From a virus (taxonomy: Duplodnaviria; Caudoviricetes): a DNA stretch of 64,000 nt. The position numbers were made by a program, and so were the translations under genes. Position 1 is the stretch's first letter. Each line of letters begins with the position of its first letter. The notes beneath the pieces were generated by a model. That model made no database searches. It was not told the origin of the DNA and saw only the letters and a program-made list of their open reading frames with translations. Of this stretch, positions 2,301 through 50,837 are shown piece after piece. The stretch is taken from the IMG/VR virus record IMGVR_UViG_3300010429_001696, positions 129,755 to 193,754 of that record; one strand, written 5' to 3'.

Positions 2301-3017
2301 TTAAAATTTTAAATTATTGAATTTATTTTTTATTTGAGCGTAAACATGATCATCGACGAGTAACGCATTTGAATCTGTCCAACCACAATTTTGTTCTTTT
2401 TTTAAATCATACAACTCATTTACTTTCAATAATTTAATATCATTATCGATTGGATTGAAATAAAGATCTAAAATCTCTAAAAGACTTATATTTCTTTTAT
2501 CCATATCCATTTTTATTTGTTTCATTATAGATCCTTCCTCTTCAGTAATATCATTAACATTTTTATTTTTTAAAAAGTCGCTTAGCTCGTTTATGCAATT
2601 TATTGTAACATTATAATCAAATTTTTTATGAAAATTTTTATCATAACATTGAGTTATAGCTTTTGTGAAAATTTGTGGTGTCGGATCAGAAAAAGGATAA
2701 GAATCTTTATGTGGATTAAAAATTTTTGTTAAATTCGGCATATTATTTCCGAGTAGCCCTTTGGATACAGCGACTTTTGCTCCATCATAAGGTATGACAT
2801 AAAATGTTTTGCCATAGAAATCTCCTAGCCATTTTTTAATAGTGAAATCAATTGATCTATATTTATTTGGATAACCTAATTTTTTCCAAGTTTCAGATTG
2901 ATCAATAACGTGAATCATTATATACAAATTAAATTCATATGGCAATCTAACTTCGTGTTTTGAAGATTCCACAAAATGAAAATCTCCATTTACTCCTTTC
3001 ATCCCTCTGGTCGCCAA
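2301..3017 (-). CDS. hypothetical protein
   Basis: 238-aa ORF, probably extending further 5' (true start uncertain). Confidence 0.6.
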   Translation of the reverse strand: MATRGMKGVNGDFHFVESSKHEVRLPYEFNLYIMIHVIDQSETWKKLGYPNKYRSIDFTIKKWLGDFYGKTFYVIPYDGAKVAVSKGLLGNNMPNLTKIFNPHKDSYPFSDPTPQIFTKAITQCYDKNFHKKFDYNVTINCINELSDFLKNKNVNDITEEEGSIMKQIKMDMDKRNISLLEILDLYFNPIDNDIKLLKVNELYDLKKEQNCGWTDSNALLVDDHVYAQIKNKFNNLKF

Positions 3018-3210
3018 TCAAATTCTTTACAATTTTTTTTATATAATTCAAAAAATTCATCGACATTCAATTCCTTTGTATAAAAAGAATAATCTGGTTT
3101 GTCATAAACATTGGCTTCATTTATAAATCTTTTAAATGTTTTCATATTTTAATTTTTTTTTTTTGATATTTTATATTTAATATATATAAAAAAAAATTAA
3201 AACAATTTTT

Positions 3211-18911: not shown

Positions 18912-19964
18912 ATGAATAAAGATTCAAAAATTTTTGTAGCTGGTCATAGTGGTATGGTTGGCTCGGCAATTCTAAGAAAGTTAAAAAAAGAAGGATATGA
19001 AAACATAATAACTCGCACACATGAAGAGCTGGATTTGTCAAATCAAAATGCGACTCTGGAATTTTTTATGAAAAATAGACCTGAATATGTTTTTGTTGCG
19101 GCAGCCAAGGTCGGTGGTATATATGCCAATAACACATATAGAGCAGAGTTCATATATAATAATTTAATCATAGAATGCAATGTTATACATTCAGCTTATT
19201 TGAGCGGTGTTAAGAAAATACTCTATTTAGGTAGTAGCTGCATTTATCCTCGTGAATGTCCTCAACCAATAAAAGAAGAATATTTATTAACTAGCGAGCT
19301 AGAAAAAACAAATGAGCCATATGCTGTTGCGAAAATAGCTGGTATAAAATTATGTGAAAGTTATTATAAACAATATGGTTGTGATTATATTTCTGTGATG
19401 CCAACCAACCTCTTCGGAAATAACGATAATTACAATCTGGAAACATCTCACGTGCTGCCAGCGATGATAAGAAAAATTCATCTAGCAAAACTATATCACA
19501 ACAATGATTGTGAGAATTTAATGAAAGATTTGAAAATGAAAAAGGAAGATGTAGTAGAATTTCTTAACAAACATGGTATATTTGAAGATGGAAAAGACAC
19601 TTATTTAAAATTGTGGGGAAGCGGCTCACCATATAGAGAATTTATGCATGTCGATGACGCGGCCGATGCCTGCCTTTTTGTTATGAATGATGTTAATAGT
19701 AAAGACATATATGATAGTGGAATATCGCAAATAAATATAGGAACTGGCAAAGACCAGACATTAGAGGAAATAGCTTATATTATTAAAGATATTGTTGGTT
19801 ATGAAGGAAAAATAGTATGGGACACAACAAAACCAGATGGAACACCAAAGAAACAACTTGATGTCAGTTTGATTAATTCTTTGGGGTGGAGATATAAGAT
19901 ACCACTGGAAGATGGCATAGAAATGACGTATAAAAATTATTTGGAAACTTACGCTAAAAAATGA
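18912..19964 (+). CDS. fcl: GDP-L-fucose synthase
   Basis: GHSGMVGSA, AAKVGGI, LGSSCIYP, YAVAK, SHVLPA, REFMHVDD, KPDGTPKK. Confidence 0.97.
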   Translation: MNKDSKIFVAGHSGMVGSAILRKLKKEGYENIITRTHEELDLSNQNATLEFFMKNRPEYVFVAAAKVGGIYANNTYRAEFIYNNLIIECNVIHSAYLSGVKKILYLGSSCIYPRECPQPIKEEYLLTSELEKTNEPYAVAKIAGIKLCESYYKQYGCDYISVMPTNLFGNNDNYNLETSHVLPAMIRKIHLAKLYHNNDCENLMKDLKMKKEDVVEFLNKHGIFEDGKDTYLKLWGSGSPYREFMHVDDAADACLFVMNDVNSKDIYDSGISQINIGTGKDQTLEEIAYIIKDIVGYEGKIVWDTTKPDGTPKKQLDVSLINSLGWRYKIPLEDGIEMTYKNYLETYAKK

Positions 19965-20136
19965 AAATTTTTAAGAAAATAAAAAGTTGGCTCAGCCTCC
20001 CAAAGAAATATAAGAAAAAAGAAAATTTGGATGAAACCAATCCGAATATAAATCCTTTTTCTTATAAAGGCACTATGTTTTTTGAGAAACAGAGTAAAAA
20101 ATTAATTAGATGAATAAAAAATTGAAATAAAATATT

Positions 20137-20811
20137 TTACAATATTTTAAAATAATAAGTATTGTTTATGTGAAGAATCTCATAATTTTTAAAAGAATCT
20201 TCAATTGATTTTTTATAGAAATTTATCTTCTTTTTATTTTCTGTTTCATCTATTATTAGAACAACCGGTTTACTCATTTTTTCTATTTCTTTAGATAGAA
20301 TATATGATATAGCATTGAATATCTTTATAATATCTCCTTTATTTGTTTCTCTTTCGAAAATGTTTCTTAACTCTGAAAATCGAACATCATTATTTCGTAT
20401 AAATCTATCCAAATAGATGATATATTTTCTATATTGCTCTTCTGTCGTAAATGCCACATTATACATTTTATAATTTTTTAACTCTGGGACATTATCAAAA
20501 ATTGTCTCTAATAAAAGAACATAATCTGTGTTATTAATGGTAAAATGATATTCGAAATCAGTCAAATTTTTATATCTTGGCGATTCTATAGGATTAACAA
20601 AATAAGAAATATATTTTGGATTAAATTTTATCTCATTCACTAGATTTTCAAATTCGCTATATCTCGGTATTGAATGTTTGAATTTTCCATCTGGATGATA
20701 ATTAATAGCGTCGCCTAACTCCTTAACTATTTCGTCATAAGTTTTGCGTTCTTTTATTAACTGACGATATTTATCATTCACTTCTTTTGTCCAAAATTGA
20801 TTAAATTTCAT
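20137..20811 (-). CDS. hypothetical protein
   Basis: ORF track; internal YSEFENLVNE. Confidence 0.65.
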   Translation of the reverse strand: MKFNQFWTKEVNDKYRQLIKERKTYDEIVKELGDAINYHPDGKFKHSIPRYSEFENLVNEIKFNPKYISYFVNPIESPRYKNLTDFEYHFTINNTDYVLLLETIFDNVPELKNYKMYNVAFTTEEQYRKYIIYLDRFIRNNDVRFSELRNIFERETNKGDIIKIFNAISYILSKEIEKMSKPVVLIIDETENKKKINFYKKSIEDSFKNYEILHINNTYYFKIL

Positions 20812-21019
20812 AATCTTATATATTCAAAAATTTAAATATAGTTTTTTATATATATTTTCATATATGAATAAACTAGATAGAATTTATGTGAATCTTCGCC
20901 AAACATCTTTATATCTTTTCGAGATTCTATTAATACATCATTAATAAATCCAAAGAATTCTTTTGGCGCTCCAACATTAAATTTTTCTTTACATTTGTTT
21001 CAAAATCAGTCATTTAAAA

Positions 21020-21262
21020 TTAAAAAACAGGCACTTCTATCTCAGGTCCTATTCTTTCAATTTCATCCATATATATACCATTACTTGAAGAATCTCCCAT
21101 ACCGCCAGGTAAGAAGCATTCGTCACCTTCCTCATACGAGGAAAATGAATCTGGTCCTTCATAATAACAAGGTGTTGGTCTATCATATCCTTTAATTAAA
21201 ATCCAATACCATCCACTTTTTTGTGGTATTTTTTTGTCGTTTTTAAATTTTTTAATTTTCAT
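21020..21262 (-). CDS. hypothetical protein
   Basis: MKIKKF start; P..SGWYW...IGPEIEVP. Confidence 0.65.
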   Translation of the reverse strand: MKIKKFKNDKKIPQKSGWYWILIKGYDRPTPCYYEGPDSFSSYEEGDECFLPGGMGDSSSNGIYMDEIERIGPEIEVPVF

Positions 21263-21562
21263 ATCGTTTTAATTTAATCATTTATTTAAATTTTTCTTTA
21301 CATTCGTCTATTATTTCTATAATCTTCATATCTTTATATTTTTCCATTATTTCTATTATATCATCACAATAAACATATATAACTGATTGTTTAAATTTTT
21401 CATTGTTTTCTAAATAAGAATTCAAAAATTCTTTAGCGTCCATTTATTTTTTTTTAATTTTTTAATTTATATGAAAAAAAAATAAGAGTTTTGTTTTATT
21501 TTATGTGACGAAAAAAATAATAAGAATTGACTTAAATATTTTTATATATACAATAAAAAACA

Positions 21563-21790
21563 TTAGATGGTTCATTTTATTTAGCTAAAATAAATATCCT
21601 AGATATGAATTTACAAATAAATCGATTCAAATAATGAATATGTTTAGTGATTGCTTAAAATATTATAATATTGAACATAAAATTAGAACAAGAAAAAATG
21701 GTGTTATGGACATATTCATCCAATCAAGAAAAAAGGTAAATTTTTTATATTCAATTTTGAATGAAAAATATAAAATGAAAAGATGGAAAT
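21563..21790 (+). pseudogene. LAGLIDADG-like endonuclease remnant
   Basis: LDGSFYLAK, frameshift, then KYPRYEFTNKSIQIMNMFSDCL...; no proper start. Confidence 0.5.
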
Positions 21791-21794
21791 TTTG

Positions 21795-21881
21795 TGCCGA
21801 AGACGGGAGTCGAACCCGTATGCTCACCTGAGCACGGCTTTTTAAGAGCCGCATGTATACCACAAATTCCATCACTTCGGC
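21795..21881 (-). tRNA. trnL: tRNA-Leu (anticodon TAA)
   Basis: GCCGAAG/CTTCGGC acceptor, CGGCT-CTTAAAA-AGCCG anticodon arm, long variable arm, GGTTCGACTCC; no encoded CCA. Confidence 0.95.
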
Positions 21882-21932
21882 ATTTAATTTTTTTCAAAGA
21901 ACTTCTTTTATATAATAGAAAATATTAATAGT

Positions 21933-22127
21933 TTATATATTTTTGAAATAACGACATAATTTAAAGACATCTCCTTCTTTAAAATCATATCTTTTTCTTG
22001 TATCACAAGCAACATCCCCAACCATACCATAATATCCAAAACATTTTTCTATTTCATGTTTAGAAAGCGAGCAATTGTCGTTTATGCCGTTCAATCTTTC
22101 ATCCAATGTGTGTTTTTTATTATCCAT
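21933..22127 (-). CDS. small hypothetical protein inside the tRNA cluster
   Basis: 64-aa ORF on the tRNA strand. Confidence 0.5.
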   Translation of the reverse strand: MDNKKHTLDERLNGINDNCSLSKHEIEKCFGYYGMVGDVACDTRKRYDFKEGDVFKLCRYFKNI

Positions 22128-22155
22128 TTTTAATTGTTTTATTATTTTTCATTTG

Positions 22156-22239
22156 TGCCCTTGATAGGATTCGAACCTACATATTCTTGCGAACGCGACA
22201 TCCTAAGTGTCGTATGTCTCCCAGTTTCATCACAAGGGC
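22156..22239 (-). tRNA. trnL: tRNA-Leu (anticodon TAG)
   Basis: GCCCTTG/CAAGGGC acceptor, CGACA-CTTAGGA-TGTCG, long variable arm, GGTTCGAATCC. Confidence 0.95.
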
Positions 22240-22247
22240 GATTTTTG

Positions 22248-22332
22248 TGCCGAAAAAAGGACTCGAACCTTCATGCCCTTCAAGAGCGCATCATTTTGAG
22301 TGATGTTTGTCTACCAATTCCAACATTTCGGC
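22248..22332 (-). tRNA. trnL: tRNA-Leu (anticodon CAA)
   Basis: GCCGAAA/TTTCGGC acceptor, CATCA-CTCAAAA-TGATG, long variable arm, GGTTCGAGTCC. Confidence 0.95.
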
Positions 22333-22940
22333 TTATTTTTTATTCATTTTTAATTTTTTTATAACAGAATAAATAGTATTACTATTTATCTTTAACATTC
22401 TTGATATTTCAATAGATTTTAATCCTTTATTATATAAATCCTTTACCGCTTCGTAATCAATTCTATATTCCTTATTTATATTTAACTCTTTAATTATTTC
22501 TGATATTGTGCTTTTTGAACAATTAAAAAATGTAGATATTTCTTTTTGATTCATACCATTTTCATACATTTTTTTGACTTCGTTTCTATTAATTTTTTGA
22601 GATAATCTTTTTAAATTATTGGATTTCAAAATTATTTCTTCTTTATTTTTTTCAAAAAAATCTAAATCGGAATGTTCTTCAGTATGGCAATTGTTACATA
22701 ATATTATACATTTATCTAGCTCTTCCATTATATAGTCTTTAATTATATCTGTATTTGAATTTCTACATCCACCTATTCCTTTAATTTTATCTCTAATATG
22801 ATGAAATGATAAAGAATCATTAGATTTATTATAACCACATTTTTCACAAGATTGACTATTTTTATATTTTAAAAATAATTTTTTAGATTCTTTATAAATA
22901 GTTTCTTCTTTTGAAGAATGAATCTCACTATGGAATGATT
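22333..22940 (-). pseudogene. 5'-truncated HNH homing endonuclease with C-terminal HTH repeats
   Basis: Frame stays open upstream of the tracked ATG: HSEIH...CEKCGYNK..DSLSFHH...ELDKCIILCNNCHTEEH; no start codon before the tRNA-Leu(GAG) gene. Confidence 0.7.
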
Positions 22941-22945
22941 CGATG

Positions 22946-23020
22946 TGTCCTAGGTGGTATTCGAAACCACACCTGTATACCCCCTCAAGATATCGCCTCT
23001 ACCAATTGGGCTACTAGGAC
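22946..23020 (-). tRNA. trnL: tRNA-Leu (anticodon GAG) with a short variable region
   Basis: GTCCTAG/CTAGGAC acceptor, Leu-like D arm GCCCAATTGGTAGAGGC, ATATC-TTGAGGG-GGTAT, 6-nt variable loop, GTGGT-TTCGAAT-ACCAC, discriminator A. Confidence 0.85.
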
Positions 23021-23022
23021 TT

Positions 23023-23092
23023 TGCCGAAATAAGATAAGTTTACTATCGCAAATTTTCTTTTCTGAGCATTTGATTCATTTCACCATCCGGT
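23023..23092 (-). pseudogene. decayed tRNA-Leu (CAG) remnant
   Basis: 5' ACCGGATGGTGAAATG, central CTCAGAA, 3' TTTCGGCA; stems and T loop lost. Confidence 0.45.
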
Positions 23093-23101
23093 ATTAAAAT
23101 A

Positions 23102-23113
23102 TTTCAAAGAACA
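23102..23113 (-). promoter_or_regulatory. boxA-like motif
   Basis: TGTTCTTTGAAA just after the attenuator terminator; AAGTTCTTTGAAAA recurs at about 21891-21904 before tRNA-Leu(TAA). Confidence 0.5.
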
Positions 23114-23116
23114 AAT

Positions 23117-23149
23117 AAAAAACCCAGTCTTTTTTGAGACCGGGTTTTT
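23117..23149 (-). terminator. attenuator terminator upstream of the tRNA-Leu cluster
   Basis: AAAAACCCGGTCT-CAAAAA-AGACTGGGTTTTTT hairpin plus U-tract. Confidence 0.85.
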
Positions 23150-23171
23150 CGAAAAATATAAAATAAACACG

Positions 23172-23264
23172 TTATTTCATTAAGCATAAAAACCTGGTCC
23201 CATAGTTTCCTAACAATAGGCCTAAAACAGACAGGAGAAGGATATTTACGTTAATGTTTTTCAT
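23172..23264 (-). CDS. leucine-rich leader peptide MKNINVNILLLSVLGLLLGNYGTRFLCLMK
   Basis: 30-aa ORF with 9 Leu; codons CTT CTC CTG..TTA.CTA TTG TTA; contains antiterminator strand GGGACCAGGTTTTT (23201-23188). Confidence 0.85.
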   Translation of the reverse strand: MKNINVNILLLSVLGLLLGNYGTRFLCLMK

Positions 23265-23326
23265 TGTTTATTTATATATTGTATAATAAATATGGTTTTT
23301 TTCCATTTTTAGTTTCAATTATACGA

Positions 23327-23334
23327 CAAAATTA
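23327..23334 (-). promoter_or_regulatory. candidate promoter of the leader/tRNA operon (TAATTTTG); TATAAATA also present just upstream of the leader ATG
   Basis: Match to TAnnTTTG about 60 nt upstream of 23264. Confidence 0.45.
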
Positions 23335-23413
23335 TAAAAAAGTTTTAAATAAAAAAAATATTTTAATCATATTTAGCGATTATTTTATTAAATGATGGCG
23401 CCAAATATCCAAA

Positions 23414-23701
23414 TTATTCAACGATTTTTATAAAAAGTGTGTCCTTATCATTTTTTATTTTAAATGGTAAAGTTTCATTATTATAATTAAGAAAATTAGA
23501 TTTTTTTGAAAATCTAAAATTCTGTTTGGTTTTAGAATAATCTCCGTTTTTTTCAAAAATCGATTTTCCATTTGTGGCAAAATACATCTTTTTATCAAAA
23601 AAATCCATGAATTGATAAAAAGTCAATCCTGTACCAATGAAAGGCACATCAATTAATTCGTAAATTCTACCATTCGTTACACATCTATAAAATTCTTTCA
23701 T
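23414..23701 (-). CDS. hypothetical protein
   Basis: ORF track. Confidence 0.55.
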   Translation of the reverse strand: MKEFYRCVTNGRIYELIDVPFIGTGLTFYQFMDFFDKKMYFATNGKSIFEKNGDYSKTKQNFRFSKKSNFLNYNNETLPFKIKNDKDTLFIKIVE

Positions 23702-23783
23702 ATCTTTTTTTATTATCTTAACAAAAAATTACAAAAAAGTTTTAAATTTTAATCATATTTAGCGATTATATCCATCTTCAAGT

Positions 23784-23957
23784 TTATTCGCATAGGTCCT
23801 TTTCAGATATTGTTTTCACAGCTATTGTATTATGTTCATTATCAAAAAGTTCGACTTCGAACACACCATTACCATGATCGAAAACAATAGTGCCTTTCGT
23901 GCCACATTTTATTTCATCAACATCATTTTTCAAAACTATAGTATCAAGCTCTTTCAT
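23784..23957 (-). CDS. DUF4926-like small protein (57 aa)
   Basis: Hand translation MKELDTIVLKND...GTKGTIV...FEVELFD; overlaps the stop of the upstream gene. Confidence 0.6.
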   Translation of the reverse strand: MKELDTIVLKNDVDEIKCGTKGTIVFDHGNGVFEVELFDNEHNTIAVKTISEKDLCE

Positions 23958-24382
23958 ATCATTTTAAAACTTTTTTTTTCATTTACAGGCCACAAATATT
24001 TTCCATCATTAAATCCTTTATCATTAAAAAATATTGACGAGTAAAAATCTTCATTTTTTTCTATTAATCTTGCTCGCATTGCTCTGTGGAAATCTTCATT
24101 ACCTAACCACCAAGGCATTACTATTTCTCCTTGTATATCGATTAGTTTCATATTATTTTTATATCCACGATTTATCCACTCTTTAACCATATGATTATAA
24201 TAATCTTTGAGCGCGTTCTCATAACCAATCCACATAAGCACGGCTGGATGGTTTTTCCAACCGCTTCCATTTTTTATCGTGTTGAGAATTTGATATGCTT
24301 CAACTCTTTGCTTGCCGAGTCTTCGATAATCTAAAGCCATTGCTGATTGTTTAAAATCTGGATATGGGAGAAATGTTTGCAT
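23954..24382 (-). CDS. pyrimidine-dimer DNA glycosylase-like protein (MSMEG_6728 family)
   Basis: MQTFLPYPDF..SA..LD.RRLGKQRVEA.QI...GW.NHPAV.MW. Confidence 0.85.
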   Translation of the reverse strand: MQTFLPYPDFKQSAMALDYRRLGKQRVEAYQILNTIKNGSGWKNHPAVLMWIGYENALKDYYNHMVKEWINRGYKNNMKLIDIQGEIVMPWWLGNEDFHRAMRARLIEKNEDFYSSIFFNDKGFNDGKYLWPVNEKKSFKMI

Positions 24383-24753
24383 GAAAATATTTTAAAAATA
24401 TCCTAACCATTCTTCAAATGATGGTATTCTAGGTAAAGGATGCATATAGTGGATGTATCCATCAAAATCTAAAGCTCCTTCTCCGAATTTTATTTCAACT
24501 TCATCAAAACTCATACACCTTCATTTGTTAAGCAAATTTAAAAAGATTTTTTTAATAAAAAAAATAATATATATGAAATATGAAAAATATAAAATTATAC
24601 GAACAATTGTTCATTCATCATTTTTAAATGTTTCATTGTCTTTTTTTTATTTTTTTTTTGAAAATATACTATTATATATTGATTTTTTTATATTGATTTT
24701 TTTATAAACATTTTTTTATTAATTTTATATATCTTTTAAAAATTATTATCTAT

Positions 24754-25899
24754 ATGGGTTATAAATATATCAAAAATAAACTGCCTTTATCCGGATTTTA
24801 TATTTCTTTCTTTGGCAGCACAATGAACGAGCGTAAAGGTATATACGGAATATCACATCTTATGGAGCATTTACTTTGTAAAGGGCTGGATCCTTATATG
24901 AATTCTTTAGAGCAAGACGGAATAAGTTGGAACGCATACACAAGCAGTCGTGAGATACTTTTTTATATGACAGGTCTCGAAAAAAATGTTAAAAAATGGA
25001 GAAAATTGTTTTATGAAAAAATATCCAATTTTGGTGTGACAGAAGAACAATTCTTGAATGAGAAAAAAATAGTCATTGAAGAATATAAAGATTCTTTTAA
25101 TGATCAGGTGGCTTGGCACTTTGATAATCTTTTTAGAAAACTCTATAATAAATATGATTCCATCGGTCTATTGGAAGATTTGGAAAACTTAACATTTGAA
25201 GATTGTAAAAATTTCTTCGAGTTACAATACTCGAAACCAAATTATATTGTAGATATTTCAAAAAGAAAGGATGAAGATCTAAGTAAATATTTTGAAAGTT
25301 TAGAATATAGCAACAATATGTATGAAAATGAAATTGTTGAGTTTAAACTCAATGAAGATTTTATATACCAAAAAGGAAATGATTATAAAGATAAATCATC
25401 GATTTTGATTTTATTGAAAAATGTTATAGATGGAGACAATGCTTATGTAGATTTTATATCACATATGTTGAGCGGTGGATTGAAATCTCCTCTTTATCAA
25501 GAAGTTAGAGAAAAAAGAGGACTTGTTTATTATATATGGTCTTATCAGAAAGACATAACAAACAGATCTAGCGTTGCTTTGATTCAAACAGAAACATCAA
25601 AAGAAAACTCAAAAGAAGTTGTGGATGTTATATTGAGCATAATAAACAATCCTAAAAGATATATGACAAAGAAAAGATTTAACATTGTCAAAAAATATTA
25701 TAAAATTTATTATGAAAAAGAAAATATTATGTTGCACAATAACGGGCATAAATTTGTGACACCAGAAAATTTTTTGTTAGAGAAGATTTTAAAGGATATA
25801 ACTTATGAAAAAGTTATGGAAGTGTATAATAAATATTTTAAAGATTTTTATGTATCAATAGATTCTGAGGAATTTAAAAATGAACTACTACGACACTAA
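24754..25899 (+). CDS. M16 family zinc peptidase
   Basis: GISHLMEH (HxxEH), NAYTS, SPLYQEVREKRGLVY. Confidence 0.92.
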   Translation: MGYKYIKNKLPLSGFYISFFGSTMNERKGIYGISHLMEHLLCKGLDPYMNSLEQDGISWNAYTSSREILFYMTGLEKNVKKWRKLFYEKISNFGVTEEQFLNEKKIVIEEYKDSFNDQVAWHFDNLFRKLYNKYDSIGLLEDLENLTFEDCKNFFELQYSKPNYIVDISKRKDEDLSKYFESLEYSNNMYENEIVEFKLNEDFIYQKGNDYKDKSSILILLKNVIDGDNAYVDFISHMLSGGLKSPLYQEVREKRGLVYYIWSYQKDITNRSSVALIQTETSKENSKEVVDVILSIINNPKRYMTKKRFNIVKKYYKIYYEKENIMLHNNGHKFVTPENFLLEKILKDITYEKVMEVYNKYFKDFYVSIDSEEFKNELLRH

Positions 25900-42496: not shown

Positions 42497-43711
42497 GTGA
42501 TGATTAATGATTATCCAAATTTTGTGATGAATGAAAATTTAAAAAAAGATCTCAAAAAACTTTTAACAAACATAAAATCTTATTTCAAAGATTATGATGA
42601 TATTGAAGTTTTGAAAAATAAACTTATAAAGTTTTTAAATAACTATAAACAGAAAGTTATATCTGGCGAGATAAAAAAAATAGATGATAATTTTATTAAA
42701 GAGCTCGCAACAGAAATCGATAAAGAAACCATTGAAGCTTTAAATATAGATGTTTTTTTTAGAGGTATAAATAATATGCTTTTAAAGAAAAAAGATAAAA
42801 AAATAGATAAATATTTTGATGATTATATAGATACTATACCAAAAAGAGTGGAAACATTGTATAACTCGGAGCAAGATATTGATATAACTGATGTTGATAC
42901 AGAAGATATTTATTATGATCCATATTTGGGGGATAAAGAATTCGCCGAGTGGAAAAAGGCTGTTTCAAAAGCTCCAAGATTTCGTGTTAAAAGAAAAAGA
43001 TTTGAAATAGAAAAAATTAGTTTACAAGTCGAACTATTGAAACTAAGAGATTGGTTACAAGAAAATAATAAAAAAGTGATTGTACTATGTGAGGGTCGGG
43101 ACGCTGCGGGAAAGGGATCTTTTATTAGGACTGTCACAGAAAATTTACAACCACAGTCTTTCAGAATAAATACCTTTGGTATACCAACTGAACACGAAAA
43201 AGAGCATTGGTTTGAAAGATATGAAAAAGTTCTTCCAACCGCAACACAACAGTTTGCTTTTTATGATCGTAGTTGGTACAATCGTGCTGTTACCGAGCCA
43301 GTTATGGGATATTGTACTCAAGAACAATACGAGCAATTTATGAAAGATGTTCTTCCATTTGAATATAAATTAATTGATAGTGGATATTATTTATTTAAAT
43401 TTTGGTTCTCAATAACAAAAGAGACTCAGCACATAAGATTTGAATTGAGGAAAACAAGTCCAGTAAAATATTGGAAATTTTCACCAAATGATGCTCTTTC
43501 TATGAATAAATGGGATGCTTACACAGCTTATAAAGAAGAAATGTTTTACAAGACATCTACTGAAAAATCTCCTTGGGTAGCTGTCGATTCTAACGAAAAA
43601 AGATTATCAAAATTAAATGCTTTAAGATATATGCTTCGTCAAATACCATACGAAAATAAAAAAGAAGAAATATTGGATGTTTATCCAGAGATAGTTTTTC
43701 CAATTATATAA
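42497..43711 (+). CDS. ppk2: polyphosphate kinase 2 with ~170-aa N-terminal extension
   Basis: EGRDAAGKGS (Walker A), YDRSWYNRAVTEPVMG, KFWFSIT, WKFSPND, SPW. Confidence 0.95.
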   Translation: MMINDYPNFVMNENLKKDLKKLLTNIKSYFKDYDDIEVLKNKLIKFLNNYKQKVISGEIKKIDDNFIKELATEIDKETIEALNIDVFFRGINNMLLKKKDKKIDKYFDDYIDTIPKRVETLYNSEQDIDITDVDTEDIYYDPYLGDKEFAEWKKAVSKAPRFRVKRKRFEIEKISLQVELLKLRDWLQENNKKVIVLCEGRDAAGKGSFIRTVTENLQPQSFRINTFGIPTEHEKEHWFERYEKVLPTATQQFAFYDRSWYNRAVTEPVMGYCTQEQYEQFMKDVLPFEYKLIDSGYYLFKFWFSITKETQHIRFELRKTSPVKYWKFSPNDALSMNKWDAYTAYKEEMFYKTSTEKSPWVAVDSNEKRLSKLNALRYMLRQIPYENKKEEILDVYPEIVFPII

Positions 43712-49832: not shown

Positions 49833-50837
49833 ATGAATTATAATGAAGATCTTTATAAAATCTTAGAGTTAGATAAAAATGCTACAGAAGAAAGTATTAA
49901 AAAAAATTATAGAAAACTTTCAAAAAAGCATCATCCAGACATCAATAAATCAGGTGAGGACGAAGAATTTAAAAAAATATCATCCGCCTATGAAGTCCTT
50001 TCAGACAAGAATAAAAAGTCAGAATATGATAGAATGTCTCCTTATGGAAAAGATTATAATCCAGCAAATAGTTTTTTTGGTGGCGGGATGGGCGGTTTTG
50101 GTTCGGTTTTCGGATTCGATCCATTTGGTGGAGGAGGAGATCCATTTGATTTTATGAACAGGGTATTTAATAGAAGAGATGAATTTATAGAAAACCTTGA
50201 TATTCAATTAAATATAAATGTAACTCTAAAAGAAATCTACAATAATGAAAATATTAAAATAGTATATGATCATCAAGTTCAATGTGACGAATGCGGTTTT
50301 ACAGGATTTGATCAAAATAGTGAATCGTATAGTTGTGATGTGTGTGATGGAAAGGGAACGGATGGATTTACAAAATGTAAATATTGTGGAGGAACAGGTA
50401 AAATCCACACTGGAACTTGTAAAAAATGTAATGGGGATAAAGTGATATTCAAAAGAGAAGAATTTGCTCTGACTAGCTCGTTTAGAATAAATAGTAGCTC
50501 AGTAAAATATTTTAGATCTATGGGTCATCAATCCAGATATTATTCTACTAAGGTCGGAACTCTGATAATTAATATAAATTTTTTGGATGATAATAGATAT
50601 GTGAGAAGAGGAAGTGATTTAATTCATAAACTGGATCTCCATTTTCAACGAGCCATAGATGGATATATTTTTGATTACGAGCATCTTGATGGAAAAAAAT
50701 ATTCTGTTTCCATACCGCCGAAAACAAAAGATGGTGATTTATTAAAAATGAGAGAGAAGGGGTTAATGATTAGCGAAAAGCAAAGAGGCGACTTGATTTT
50801 TAACATAAATATAATTATAGACTACGATTTGTTCTAA
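49833..50837 (+). CDS. dnaJ: DnaJ (class A-like) co-chaperone
   Basis: J domain with HPD, G/F-rich linker, four CxxCxGxG repeats, C-terminal domain. Confidence 0.93.
   Translation: MNYNEDLYKILELDKNATEESIKKNYRKLSKKHHPDINKSGEDEEFKKISSAYEVLSDKNKKSEYDRMSPYGKDYNPANSFFGGGMGGFGSVFGFDPFGGGGDPFDFMNRVFNRRDEFIENLDIQLNINVTLKEIYNNENIKIVYDHQVQCDECGFTGFDQNSESYSCDVCDGKGTDGFTKCKYCGGTGKIHTGTCKKCNGDKVIFKREEFALTSSFRINSSSVKYFRSMGHQSRYYSTKVGTLIININFLDDNRYVRRGSDLIHKLDLHFQRAIDGYIFDYEHLDGKKYSVSIPPKTKDGDLLKMREKGLMISEKQRGDLIFNINIIIDYDLF

What the first reader, a model, noticed from the sequence alone, without database searches (positions are those of the whole stretch)
21795..23334. Leader-peptide attenuator using all six Leu codons controls a phage tRNA-Leu operon
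Seen in sequence (minus strand): a candidate promoter, then an unannotated 30-aa ORF (23264-23172, MKNINVNILLLSVLGLLLGNYGTRFLCLMK). Codons 9-18 are CTT CTC CTG TCT GTT TTA GGC CTA TTG TTA, so every Leu codon appears within ten codons, including GC-richer ones in a very AT-rich genome. The ORF's GGGACCAGGTTTTT (23201-23188) can pair at 13 of 14 positions with AAAAACCCGGTCTC (23149-23136), which is the 5' arm of a strong terminator (23149-23117), so the two structures are mutually exclusive. CCTGTC...GTTT in the Leu run can pair with AAAC...GGGACCAGG as a protector helix. Downstream lie only tRNA-Leu genes. Established: this is the layout of trp/leu/his attenuators, which normally control amino-acid biosynthesis genes; phage tRNAs can replace host tRNAs cut by anticodon nucleases. 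Inference: the phage senses loss or uncharging of any Leu isoacceptor by ribosome stalling and responds by transcribing its own tRNA-Leu set. I do not know of a described attenuator controlling tRNA genes in a phage.
Basis: partly seen in the sequence, partly recalled or inferred. Interest (0 to 1): 0.95.

Follow-up and report, generated by a model that had tools for sequence, protein, structure and literature searches.

The report
Leucine-codon leader switch gating phage tRNAs
A 30-codon mini-gene that uses all six leucine codons sits between a promoter and a strong, switchable transcription stop signal in front of this phage's four leucine tRNA genes. The same design, with matching codons, precedes every other tRNA cluster in this phage and its relatives, so the phage probably makes a tRNA set only when ribosomes read those codons slowly.

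Summary
The interpretation, a leader-peptide transcription attenuator controlling tRNA genes, is strongly supported by comparison but not by experiment.

- **The unit.** On the minus strand lie a promoter box, a 30-aa leader ORF (9 Leu, all six Leu codons), a segment that can pair either with the Leu-codon run or with the terminator's 5' arm, a 14-bp/U6 terminator, a boxA-like GTTCTTTGAAA, then four tRNAs with Leu anticodons.
- **Same genome.** The 194-kb phage genome has two more units with the same promoter and 5'UTR. Their leaders match their own tRNAs (Glu/Ile-AUA; Tyr/Ile/Asp/Asn/Cys/Gln/Met).
- **Relative.** A 735-kb relative (terminase 68% identical) has five such units, including a Leu unit that also has all six Leu codons.
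- **Other contigs.** Two more Leu leaders and about ten other units turned up in IMG/VR contigs.
- **Statistics.** Leader codons match their own tRNA set (Fisher P about 1e-15; 0 of 100,000 permutations). The antiterminator pairing is kept through changed sequences.

I found no published description. This scan has noted the same design before on other phage DNA. No RNA or functional data exist.

The parts
23327..23334 (-). Promoter -7 box TAATTTTG (Bacteroidota type TAnnTTTG), preceded by AAACTTTTT
   Evidence: Conserved in all three units of the genome and before two ordinary genes. The relative's units have TAAATTTG or TATCTTTG in this place. Promoter function is inferred.
23265..23326 (-). 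Conserved 5' UTR (TCGTATAATTGAAAC ... GGAAAAAAAC ... ATACAATATATAAATAAAC) ending at the leader ATG
   Evidence: About 85 nt are nearly identical among the three units. A related motif (GAAAAAAMNGAC..TTTTT..AATATATA, which the two other units of this genome and the relative's units match; this Leu unit reads CCAT where they have NGAC) also heads 57 long, structural-looking ORFs in IMG/VR contigs. It is therefore a general expression and translation-start signal.
23172..23264 (-). Leader ORF, 30 codons plus stop: MKNINVNILLLSVLGLLLGNYGTRFLCLMK
   Evidence: 9 Leu of 29 codons, P = 2.2e-4. No Pfam family.
23211..23240 (-). Sensing run, codons 9-18, holding all six Leu codons. Its first part (23241-23231) is region 1, which pairs with region 2.
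   Evidence: Sequence. Helix nt 24-34 with nt 62-72 in the MFE folds.
23188..23201 (-). Region 2 (GGGACCAGGUUUUU): pairs either with region 1 or with the terminator's 5' arm (antiterminator)
   Evidence: Duplex -15.0 to -16.6 kcal/mol; 5 of 2000 shuffles as good. Its terminator's upstream complementarity ranks 3rd of 11 terminators in the genome, after the two other units.
23117..23150 (-). Intrinsic terminator: 5' arm 23150-23137, loop 23136-23131, 3' arm plus U-run 23130-23117
   Evidence: -18.2 kcal/mol.
23102..23112 (-). GTTCTTTGAAA, boxA-like motif just after the terminator
   Evidence: 8 of 9 exact copies in the genome lie in the tRNA clusters on the tRNA strand. The same place in the relative's units holds GTTCTTTAACA or GTTCTTTGAAA. 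Its role is inferred.
23021..23101 (-). About 80-nt spacer of unknown role between boxA-like motif and first tRNA
   Evidence: No Rfam match. No TAnnTTTG box.
22945..23020 (-). tRNA with anticodon GAG (reads CUC/CUU); atypical 76 nt, short variable arm
   Evidence: ARAGORN. Not matched by the Rfam tRNA model at E <= 1. Homologous short tRNAs with Leu anticodons exist in LR756501.
22333..22929 (-). HNH homing-endonuclease-like ORF inside the operon. Its start is uncertain; the first ATG is at 22728.
   Evidence: PHROG HNH families, with homology starting upstream of the first ATG.
22247..22332 (-). tRNA-Leu(CAA)
22155..22239 (-). tRNA-Leu(TAG)
21933..22127 (-). 64-aa ORF of unknown function inside the operon
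   Evidence: Called as a gene in other assemblies.
21892..21902 (-). Second GTTCTTTGAAA (boxA-like), 10 nt before the last tRNA
21794..21881 (-). tRNA-Leu(TAA)

Best explanation
This is a ribosome-mediated (leader-peptide) transcription attenuator that gates a phage tRNA-Leu operon.

**Proposed mechanism.** Transcription starts at the TAATTTTG promoter, and the 30-codon leader is translated while RNA polymerase moves on.
- If all Leu codons are decoded quickly, the ribosome runs over region 2 to the stop codon. Region 2 is then covered, or is recaptured by the Leu-codon segment (region 1). The 14-bp terminator forms and transcription ends at about 23117.
- If any charged tRNA-Leu isoacceptor is scarce, the ribosome stalls in codons 9-18. 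This occupies region 1 and leaves region 2 free to pair with the terminator's 5' arm as it emerges. The terminator cannot form.
- Polymerase then reads on past a boxA-like element into the four tRNAs, which together read all six Leu codons. As these tRNAs accumulate and are charged, the leader is read faster and the switch closes. This gives homeostatic feedback on decoding capacity.

**Shown here:** the sequence elements, their alternative pairings, the codon bias, and their recurrence and co-variation in paralogous and homologous units.

**Inferred:** translation of the leader, conditional termination, the direction of regulation, co-transcription of the tRNAs from this promoter, and the boxA role.
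For: 1. **Anatomy** is confirmed.

2. **Paralogues in the same genome** share about 85 nt of promoter and 5'UTR but have different leaders.
 - MMKNFNIYEEIENSPT (ATA, GAA, GAG, ATA, GAA) precedes tRNA-Glu(CTC), Glu(TTC) and Ile(TAT).
 - MKTMCNYMNIYDDQMKILIG precedes Tyr, Ile, Asp, Asn, Cys, Gln and Met tRNAs.
 - All tRNA genes of the genome lie behind one of the three units.

3. **The relative LR756501** (TerL 68% identical) has five units whose leaders list the amino acids of their own clusters. Examples:
 - TPAPAVAFRRGTGTGTGT before Arg/Thr/Val/Ala/Gly/Pro tRNAs.
 - SKHSKHFSSSSKWF before Trp/His/Phe/Lys/Ser tRNAs.
 - Its Leu leader has all six Leu codons.

4. **Statistics.**
 - Own Leu unit P = 2.2e-4. 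Fisher over 8 units 1e-15. In 7 of 8 units each leader scores best on its own set or on the homologous set in the other phage.
 - For 19 unique leader/tRNA-set pairs, 42% of leader codons are read by the unit's own tRNAs against 17% by other units' tRNAs, with 0 of 100,000 permutations as good.

5. **Leu homologues** L266 (all six codons) and L242 (five of six) keep the rare CTC and CTG, while individual codons change position.

6. **The antiterminator helix co-varies.**
 - Across units the pairs are GGGACCAGG/CCCGGTCTC, GATTGGG/CCCAATC, TTCGGGGTT/AACCCCGAA, GGGTGTGGGT/ACCCACACCC, GGTTCGGA/TCCGAAC and AATTGACTGG/CCAGTCAAT.
 - TGATTGGG:CCCAATCA changes to GGATTGGG:CCCAATCC, and the new G-C pair is absent from the terminator itself.
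 - Among 11 strong terminators in the genome, only the three unit terminators have significant upstream complementarity (z -3.1 to -4.3, the rest -0.35 to +1.0).

7. **Translation signal.** A closely related 5'UTR motif, found in the other units, precedes long ORFs in many contigs, so it is a real translation-start context. Of 103 motif-associated ORFs, tRNAs follow only the short ones: 14 of 22 short ORFs against 0 long ones.

8. **No internal promoter seen before the first tRNA.** No TAnnTTTG box lies between the terminator and the first tRNA. Where the relative drives tRNAs directly (suppressor tRNAs), such a box sits right upstream.
Against: - There is no RNA or functional evidence. The one attempt to lay public reads failed.
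- The leader has no Shine-Dalgarno sequence. This is expected for a Bacteroidota host but leaves translation unproven.
- At equilibrium the terminator (-18.2) beats the antiterminator (-15.0 to -16.6) in every masked fold. The switch must therefore be kinetic, as in trp, and this cannot be tested in silico.
- With the ribosome at the stop codon (nt 91), region 2 (nt 64-77) is mostly behind the ribosome rather than under it. Closure therefore relies on region 1:2 re-pairing or on steric blocking.
- Two further Leu codons (26 and 28) lie inside or after region 2 and cannot act as sensors.
- A TAATTTTG box inside the HNH ORF (22634) could drive the last three tRNAs independently.
- GTTCTTTGAAA could be a promoter or processing signal rather than boxA.
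- The units compared are homologous, so the counts are not fully independent.
Confidence: 0.8

Rival explanations
1. An ordinary small-protein gene (a hydrophobic, Leu-rich peptide) ends at its own terminator. The tRNAs are transcribed from separate signals downstream, and the leucine bias only reflects hydrophobicity.
For: The peptide has a hydrophobic stretch, ILLLSVLGLLLG. A TAnnTTTG box exists inside the HNH ORF. GTTCTTTGAAA precedes several tRNAs and might be a promoter element.
Against: - The paralogous and homologous units encode unrelated, non-hydrophobic peptides (EEIE; YNDYCIND; TGTGTGT; SKHSKHF), each matching its own tRNAs.
- Leu homologues contain Asp and Asn inside the 'hydrophobic' stretch.
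- Hydrophobicity does not explain the use of rare CTC and CTG and of all six codons.
- Hydrophobicity does not explain the co-varying complementarity to the terminator arm.
- The peptide has no Pfam family.
Confidence: 0.05
2. The leader is translated and senses decoding, but the output is not intrinsic-terminator readthrough. It could be Rho access, RNA processing or stability of the precursor, or release of the terminated ~200-nt leader RNA as a trans-acting small RNA.
For: The leader region folds strongly (z = -5.3). Terminated attenuator RNAs act in trans in Sinorhizobium (rnTrpL; PMC6614838, abstract only). The boxA-like motif hints at Nus-type control of Rho.
Against: Every unit has a canonical hairpin plus U-run, and a strand that competes for its 5' arm. 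That is the specific signature of intrinsic-terminator attenuation, and nothing here calls for another output.
Confidence: 0.1
3. Chance: a short ORF and a terminator happen to precede a tRNA cluster in an AT-rich genome.
For: Short ORFs are common in AT-rich DNA, and A/U runs pair easily.
Against: Combined P is about 1e-15 over eight units, and 0 of 100,000 permutations do as well. Shuffle tests of the pairing and a genome-wide control on terminators agree. The design is conserved in phages whose terminases differ by about 30%.
Confidence: 0.01

Closest known systems
Leader-peptide attenuators of amino-acid biosynthesis operons (E. coli/Salmonella trpL, leuL, hisL, pheL; multivalent thrL and ilvL). 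Recalled from textbook knowledge.
   Same: - Short translated leader enriched in the regulatory codons.
- Regions 1:2, 2:3 and 3:4 with mutually exclusive helices.
- Intrinsic terminator.
- Sensing codons placed 8-15 nt before region 2.
- Mixed-codon leaders for mixed operons, as in ilv and thr.
   Different: - The regulated genes are tRNAs, not biosynthetic enzymes, so the output feeds back directly on the sensed quantity (decoding capacity) rather than on amino-acid supply.
- The Leu leader samples all six synonymous codons, one or more per isoacceptor, instead of repeating one codon.
- It is phage-encoded and present in several copies per genome, one per tRNA cluster.
- No Shine-Dalgarno sequence.
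pheST (pheM leader) and other attenuators or T-box leaders that control aminoacyl-tRNA synthetase genes. Recalled from own knowledge.
   Same: A translation-apparatus gene is regulated by the charging or availability of the cognate tRNA through a terminator/antiterminator switch.
   Different: - pheM controls a synthetase, not tRNA genes.
- T-box leaders bind uncharged tRNA directly, without translation. No T-box (or any Rfam family other than tRNA) matched here.
rrn and lambda-nut boxA / Nus-factor processive antitermination. E. coli rrn boxA is recalled as GCTCTTTAACAA. GTTCTTTGAAAACT is used as a mycoplasma detection PCR primer (PMC3019172); that it lies in the conserved 16S-23S spacer is from memory.
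   Same: GTTCTTTGAAA / GTTCTTTAACA motifs sit just after the attenuator terminator and between tRNAs. rrn operons have boxA after the promoter and in the spacer.
   Different: Resemblance only. Binding of NusB/NusE was not tested, the host boxA is unknown, and the motif could be a processing or promoter signal.
Codon-matched leader units before tRNA clusters noted earlier in this scan on other phages (phiCbK-like Caulobacter phages, flavobacterial-type and marine Bacteroidota phages). These are AI notes.
   Same: Promoter, short ORF made of the codons read by the tRNAs downstream, then a terminator.
   Different: - Different phage lineage: Mahaphage-related, from anaerobic digester and wastewater samples.
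- This is a single-amino-acid (Leu-only) unit with full synonymous-codon coverage.
- Those notes were not re-tested here.

Membership tests
Leader-peptide (ribosome-mediated) transcription attenuator | Short ORF with a start codon in the 5' leader, in a context that supports translation | tested here: met
   30-codon ORF at 23264-23172. A closely related 5'UTR motif, found in the other units, heads long ORFs in many related contigs. Translation itself was not shown.
Leader-peptide (ribosome-mediated) transcription attenuator | Enrichment of the regulatory codons in the leader | tested here: met
   9 Leu of 29 codons (P = 2.2e-4). All six Leu codons (P = 0.029 given 9 Leu). The same holds in three homologues.
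Leader-peptide (ribosome-mediated) transcription attenuator | Intrinsic terminator between the leader and the regulated genes | tested here: met
   14-bp stem, 6-nt loop, U6, -18.2 kcal/mol at 23150-23117.
Leader-peptide (ribosome-mediated) transcription attenuator | Antiterminator helix mutually exclusive with the terminator, supported by co-variation | tested here: met
   Region 2 with the 5' arm gives -15.0 to -16.6 kcal/mol; 5 of 2000 shuffles do as well. At least six different sequence pairs keep the pairing across units. The complementarity is specific to unit terminators.
Leader-peptide (ribosome-mediated) transcription attenuator | Anti-antiterminator (region 1:2) helix that includes the regulatory codons | tested here: inconclusive
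   It is present in the MFE of this unit (nt 24-34 with nt 62-72). A weaker ACCU:GGGU version exists in the LR756501 Leu unit. Conservation was not tested statistically.
Leader-peptide (ribosome-mediated) transcription attenuator | Conditional readthrough that depends on translation of the regulatory codons | not testable with these tools
   Needs reporter, Term-seq or in-vitro assays. The read-laying attempt failed.
Leader-peptide (ribosome-mediated) transcription attenuator | Regulated genes are amino-acid biosynthesis or transport genes (the classical scope) | tested here: not met
   Downstream are four tRNAs, an HNH endonuclease and a 64-aa ORF. This is the departure from the known family.
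T-box riboswitch | Match to the T-box leader model (specifier loop, T-box sequence) | tested here: not met
   An Rfam scan of 20000-25000 at E <= 1 found only tRNAs.
boxA / Nus antitermination site | boxA consensus bound by NusB-NusE, located after the promoter of a stable-RNA operon | tested here: inconclusive
   GTTCTTTGAAA is concentrated in the tRNA clusters on the sense strand and conserved in place in relatives. The likeness to boxA is from memory, and binding is untested.

The most novel reading that the evidence does not exclude
Huge phages of the Mahaphage-related lineage, and by the scan's earlier notes other phage groups too, run a codon-resolved homeostat for their own tRNA supply. 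Each tRNA operon sits behind a leader mini-gene that lists the codons its tRNAs read, so transcription of a tRNA set is switched on only when ribosomes stall on those codons. For leucine, the leader checks every isoacceptor by carrying all six synonymous codons. This would be a previously undescribed class of target (tRNA genes) and of logic (direct feedback on decoding capacity, per isoacceptor) for ribosome-mediated attenuation. It may let the phage replace host tRNAs that are lost or cleaved during infection.
Probability: 0.72. Interest if true: 0.92.

Novelty: new variant of a known kind. Interest (0 to 1): 0.88.

Why it matters
- **Regulation of phage tRNA genes.** Why phages carry tRNAs, and how their expression is set, is an open question. 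Control of tRNA genes by leader-peptide attenuation is, as far as my searches reach, undescribed. The paper describing the 735-kb relative does not mention it in the passages I read (PMC7162821).
- **Meaning if real.** Phages would measure decoding speed codon by codon and top up exactly the tRNAs that are short. This bears on host tRNA depletion or cleavage as a defence, on codon-usage mismatch, and on how far huge phages are independent of host translation.
- **Practical use.**
 - The leaders are a sequence-readable annotation of which tRNAs a phage treats as one regulatory unit.
 - They give a natural, compact sensor design for isoacceptor-specific tRNA availability.
 - The multi-copy, co-varying units make the hypothesis directly testable with simple reporter or in-vitro assays.

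Tried and rejected
- **Searches for close relatives.**
 - Two exact-pattern scans of IMG/VR for the promoter/5'UTR of this genome found nothing.
 - A scan for the tRNA-Leu(TAG) pattern found nothing.
 - The search for related loci with a 509-aa window protein found no relative.
 - Five IMG/VR contigs with terminases 69-71% identical carry no tRNAs, being 4-21% fragments.
 - The scan's own index had no look-alike of this stretch.
- **Natural variation.** Contigs encoding the identical upstream protein were 100% identical over the unit, so they give no co-variation data.
- **RNA evidence.** No expression data were obtained, and small-share runs are not used as evidence of habitat.
- **Non-specific pattern.** AATATATA..ATGAAWAACATT was largely non-specific (116 hits, many in giant-virus bins). 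Only L242, L266 and L233 were informative.
- **boxA.** A text search for GTTCTTTGAAA gave only primer listings. The NusB/NusE structure paper did not contain the strings I searched. The boxA reading therefore stays a resemblance.
- **Equilibrium folding with ribosome masks.** It cannot show switching, because the terminator always wins thermodynamically in this unit.
- **Ideas considered and dropped.**
 - A conserved hairpin in the 5'UTR: ATGG/CCAT pairs only in the Leu unit.
 - A sigma-70 reading of TATAAT: it is not conserved in the relative.
 - The long hairpin as a mobile inverted repeat: there are no other copies in the genome.
Full report
**1. What is there**

On the minus strand, the window reads in this order:
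- a promoter-like box TAATTTTG (23334-23327);
- a 62-nt 5'UTR;
- a 30-codon ORF (23264-23172, MKNINVNILLLSVLGLLLGNYGTRFLCLMK);
- a 21-nt gap;
- a perfect 14-bp/6-nt-loop/U6 terminator (23150-23117);
- the motif GTTCTTTGAAA (23112-23102);
- an ~80-nt spacer;
- four tRNAs with anticodons GAG, CAA, TAG and TAA, interspersed with an HNH endonuclease ORF and a 64-aa ORF.

The four anticodons together read all six. The sequence is identical in four assemblies from other samples.

The window is the last 64 kb of a 193,754-bp IMG/VR phage record with 28.6% G+C.

**2. Is it more than chance?**

Leu makes up 7.7% of codons in long ORFs of this genome. Nine Leu in 29 codons has P = 2.2e-4. CTC and CTG are 4-5% of Leu codons each, so seeing all six among nine has P = 0.029.

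The strand GGGACCAGGUUUUU (leader nt 64-77) pairs with the terminator's 5' arm at -15.0 to -16.6 kcal/mol. Only 5 of 2000 dinucleotide shuffles of the upstream RNA do as well.

In the unconstrained fold the same strand pairs instead with nt 24-34, which are the Leu codons CUU CUC CUG. The three helices of a classical attenuator (1:2, 2:3, 3:4) are therefore all present.

**3. Paralogues in the same genome (outside the window)**

A search of the whole genome with the unit found two more copies of its first ~85 nt, covering promoter and 5'UTR. Each is followed by a different short ORF, a strand complementary to a terminator arm, a terminator, and tRNAs.

| Unit position (genome) | Leader | Region 2 : terminator arm | tRNAs downstream |
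|---|---|---|---|
| ~17.8 kb | MMKNFNIYEEIENSPT (ATA .. GAA GAG ATA GAA) | TTGATTGGG : CCCAATCAA | Glu(CTC), Glu(TTC), Ile(TAT) |
| ~16.0 kb | MKTMCNYMNIYDDQMKILIG | GATTGGGT : ACCCAATC | Tyr, Ile, Asp, Asn, Cys, Gln, Met |

All tRNA genes of the genome lie behind one of the three units.

Of 11 strong terminator-like hairpins in the genome, the three unit terminators are the only ones with significant upstream complementarity. Their z-scores are -4.3, -3.7 and -3.1, while the others range from -0.35 to +1.0.

**4. Relatives**

The large terminase is 68% identical to that of LR756501, the 735-kb 'huge phage' of the Mahaphage clade. That phage is predicted to infect Bacteroidetes (PMC7162821).

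Its 66 tRNAs lie in clusters sorted by amino acid. I found five units:

| Unit | Leader (or its core) | tRNAs downstream |
|---|---|---|
| A | MNFRIINMIQEQMQQIQNLIGGTISY | Met, Gln(TTG), Gln(CTG), Ile(TAT), Glu |
| B | MKNMVRKYNDYCINDKLKMLIG | Ile, Tyr, Cys, Asp, Asn |
| C | MNNILHINLLNSLCLLGIKLIG (CTA CTT CTG TTA CTC TTG TTG) | five Leu tRNAs |
| D | ..SKHSKHFSSSSKWFTTF.. | Trp, His, Phe, Lys, Ser |
| F | ..TPAPAVAFRRGTGTGTGTCVPAGCG.. | Arg, Thr, Val, Ala, Gly, Pro |

Leader content follows tRNA content where the clusters are arranged differently. This genome's mixed unit has gained Gln and Met tRNAs, and it has Q and extra M in its leader. The relative's unit B lacks Gln tRNAs and has no Q in its leader.

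Fisher's combined P over the eight units is about 1e-15. In the leader-versus-set matrix, 7 of 8 leaders score best on their own set or on the homologous set in the other phage.

**5. Wider sampling**

A motif shared by the 5'UTRs (GAAAAAAMNGAC..TTTTT..AATATATA) hit more than 116 IMG/VR stretches.
- Most hits precede long ORFs that recur across contigs, so the UTR is a general expression and translation-start signal.
- Of 103 motif-associated ORFs, 22 are short. Of these, 14 have two or more tRNAs downstream. None of the long ORFs has.
- For 19 unique leader/tRNA-set pairs, 42% of leader codons are read by the unit's own tRNAs against 17% by other units' tRNAs. None of 100,000 permutations reached the observed value. 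Homology among units inflates this somewhat.
- Ten of twelve unique units have a strong terminator 25-35 nt after the stop, and a region 2 inside the 3' part of the leader. The sequences differ from unit to unit but stay complementary.

A second scan gave two further Leu units and one Asp/Gln unit:
- L266 (IMGVR_UViG_3300025858_000494): MNNILHTNLLNLLDLLGYNWIG, with all six Leu codons.
- L242 (IMGVR_UViG_3300042261_000762): five of six Leu codons.
- L233: an Asp/Gln unit.

Between the LR756501 leader and L266, CTT moves from position 9 to position 12 while the full codon set is kept. The change TGATTGGG to GGATTGGG in region 2 is matched by CCCAATCA to CCCAATCC in the arm, although the terminator's own 3' arm does not use that pair. 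The antiterminator helix is therefore under selection of its own.

**6. Mechanism**

The layout fits the trp-type model.
- The last sensing codon (18) ends at nt 54 and region 2 starts at nt 63-64. A ribosome stalled on codons 9-18 therefore occupies or separates region 1 and leaves region 2 free.
- When decoding is fast, the ribosome passes over region 2 to the stop at nt 91. Region 1:2 can re-form behind it, and the terminator forms.
- The terminator is more stable than the antiterminator in all equilibrium folds, as in trp, so the decision must be kinetic.
- In the other two units of this genome, and in several relatives, the stop codon lies inside region 2. In this unit and many IMG/VR units, region 2 lies 9-40 nt before the stop.

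The boxA-like motif placed after the terminator would make sense as the loading site for a termination-resistant complex for the long, structured operon. This is a resemblance only.

Host: the -7 box TAnnTTTG, the lack of Shine-Dalgarno sequences and the relative's predicted host all point to Bacteroidota. The DNA occurs in anaerobic-digester, wastewater and sludge runs (the two full holders may be the source samples).

**7. What is not shown**

Translation of the leader, conditional termination, the transcription start, co-transcription of the tRNAs, and any link to anticodon nucleases are not shown. An internal TAATTTTG at 22634 could feed the last three tRNAs. The GAG tRNA is atypical.

**8. 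Known or new**

Four literature searches found no description of attenuation of tRNA genes, in phages or elsewhere. The closest known systems are the amino-acid operon attenuators, the pheST leader and T-box leaders.

This scan has already noted and followed up the same design on other phage DNA: phiCbK-like and flavobacterial or marine Bacteroidota phages (AI notes not re-tested here). Other first readers noted the two sister units of this genome.

I rate it a new variant of a known kind, of high interest. Confidence in the attenuator reading is 0.8.

Noticed in passing
window 22945-23020 (-); L028 401-475 and 480-553 (-): These are tRNAs with Leu anticodons but a short (class I-like) variable arm, a 3-bp D stem and A73. 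The window's GAG tRNA (76 nt) is called by ARAGORN but not by Rfam. LR756501 has two such tRNAs (TAG, TAA) that Rfam does accept, alongside normal long-arm tRNA-Leu. Which amino acid they accept is unknown.
   Followed up: partly
window 22333-22998 (-): HNH homing-endonuclease-like frame between the first and second tRNA. Its HNH homology begins about 60 codons upstream of the first ATG (22728), and the open frame runs back into the tRNA. It either has a non-canonical start or is decaying.
   Followed up: partly
window 23102-23112 and 21892-21902 (-); genome C1 13544-17662 (-): 8 of the 9 exact GTTCTTTGAAA copies in the genome lie in the tRNA clusters, always on the tRNA strand, after the attenuator terminators and between tRNAs. 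The motif is boxA-like. Relatives have GTTCTTTAACA or GTTCTTTGACA in the same places.
   Followed up: partly
window 23021-23101 (-); L033 about 2900-3150 (-): Unassigned structured spacers lie between the terminator/boxA and the first tRNA. In LR756501 the corresponding stretch has a T-arm-like GTTGGTTCGAATCCAAC. They may be tRNA-like or other small RNAs at the head of the operons. No Rfam match.
   Followed up: no
L033 2111-2411 (-) = genome C1 14610-14910: Two tRNA halves are separated by an insert of about 200 nt in the anticodon loop (after CTGT, resuming CAC, which gives anticodon GTC if spliced). This looks like an intron-containing tRNA. Rfam reported no intron family at E <= 0.1.
   Followed up: no
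L033 403-474 (-) = genome C1 12901-12973: tRNA with an 8-nt anticodon loop. ARAGORN reports a four-base anticodon CTTG. Its identity is unclear (Lys-CTT or Pro-TGG reading).
   Followed up: no
L027 2560-2931 (-) (LR756501): A ribosomal protein bL12 (L7/L12) gene (Pfam 2.6e-19) sits inside the relative's Tyr/Asn/Asp/Cys/Ile tRNA operon, between the boxA-like motif and the first tRNA. It would therefore be under the same leader control.
   Followed up: partly
L032 2086-2239 (+) (LR756501): Two suppressor-type tRNAs (anticodon CTA) have a plain TATATTTG box about 20 nt upstream and no leader ORF or terminator. This is a useful contrast to the gated clusters, and a hint that the relative reads TAG as sense.
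   Followed up: no
L040, L043, L046, L044 and about 50 other IMG/VR loci: The 5'UTR motif GAAAAAAMNGAC..TTTTT..AATATATA precedes a few recurring long ORFs (about 610, 427, 780 and 1400 aa) in many huge-phage contigs. It is probably the expression signal of abundant structural genes. None had PHROG or Pfam hits among the window's large proteins that I tested.
   Followed up: no
window 42497-43711 (+), 49833-50837 (+), 18912-19964 (+), 24754-25899 (+): Auxiliary genes in the window:
- polyphosphate kinase 2;
- a DnaJ-type chaperone;
- an NAD-dependent epimerase-like protein (my reading of its sequence, not tested);
- an M16 peptidase-like protein, which is the only stretch with nucleotide-level similarity (66%) to LR756501.
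   Followed up: no
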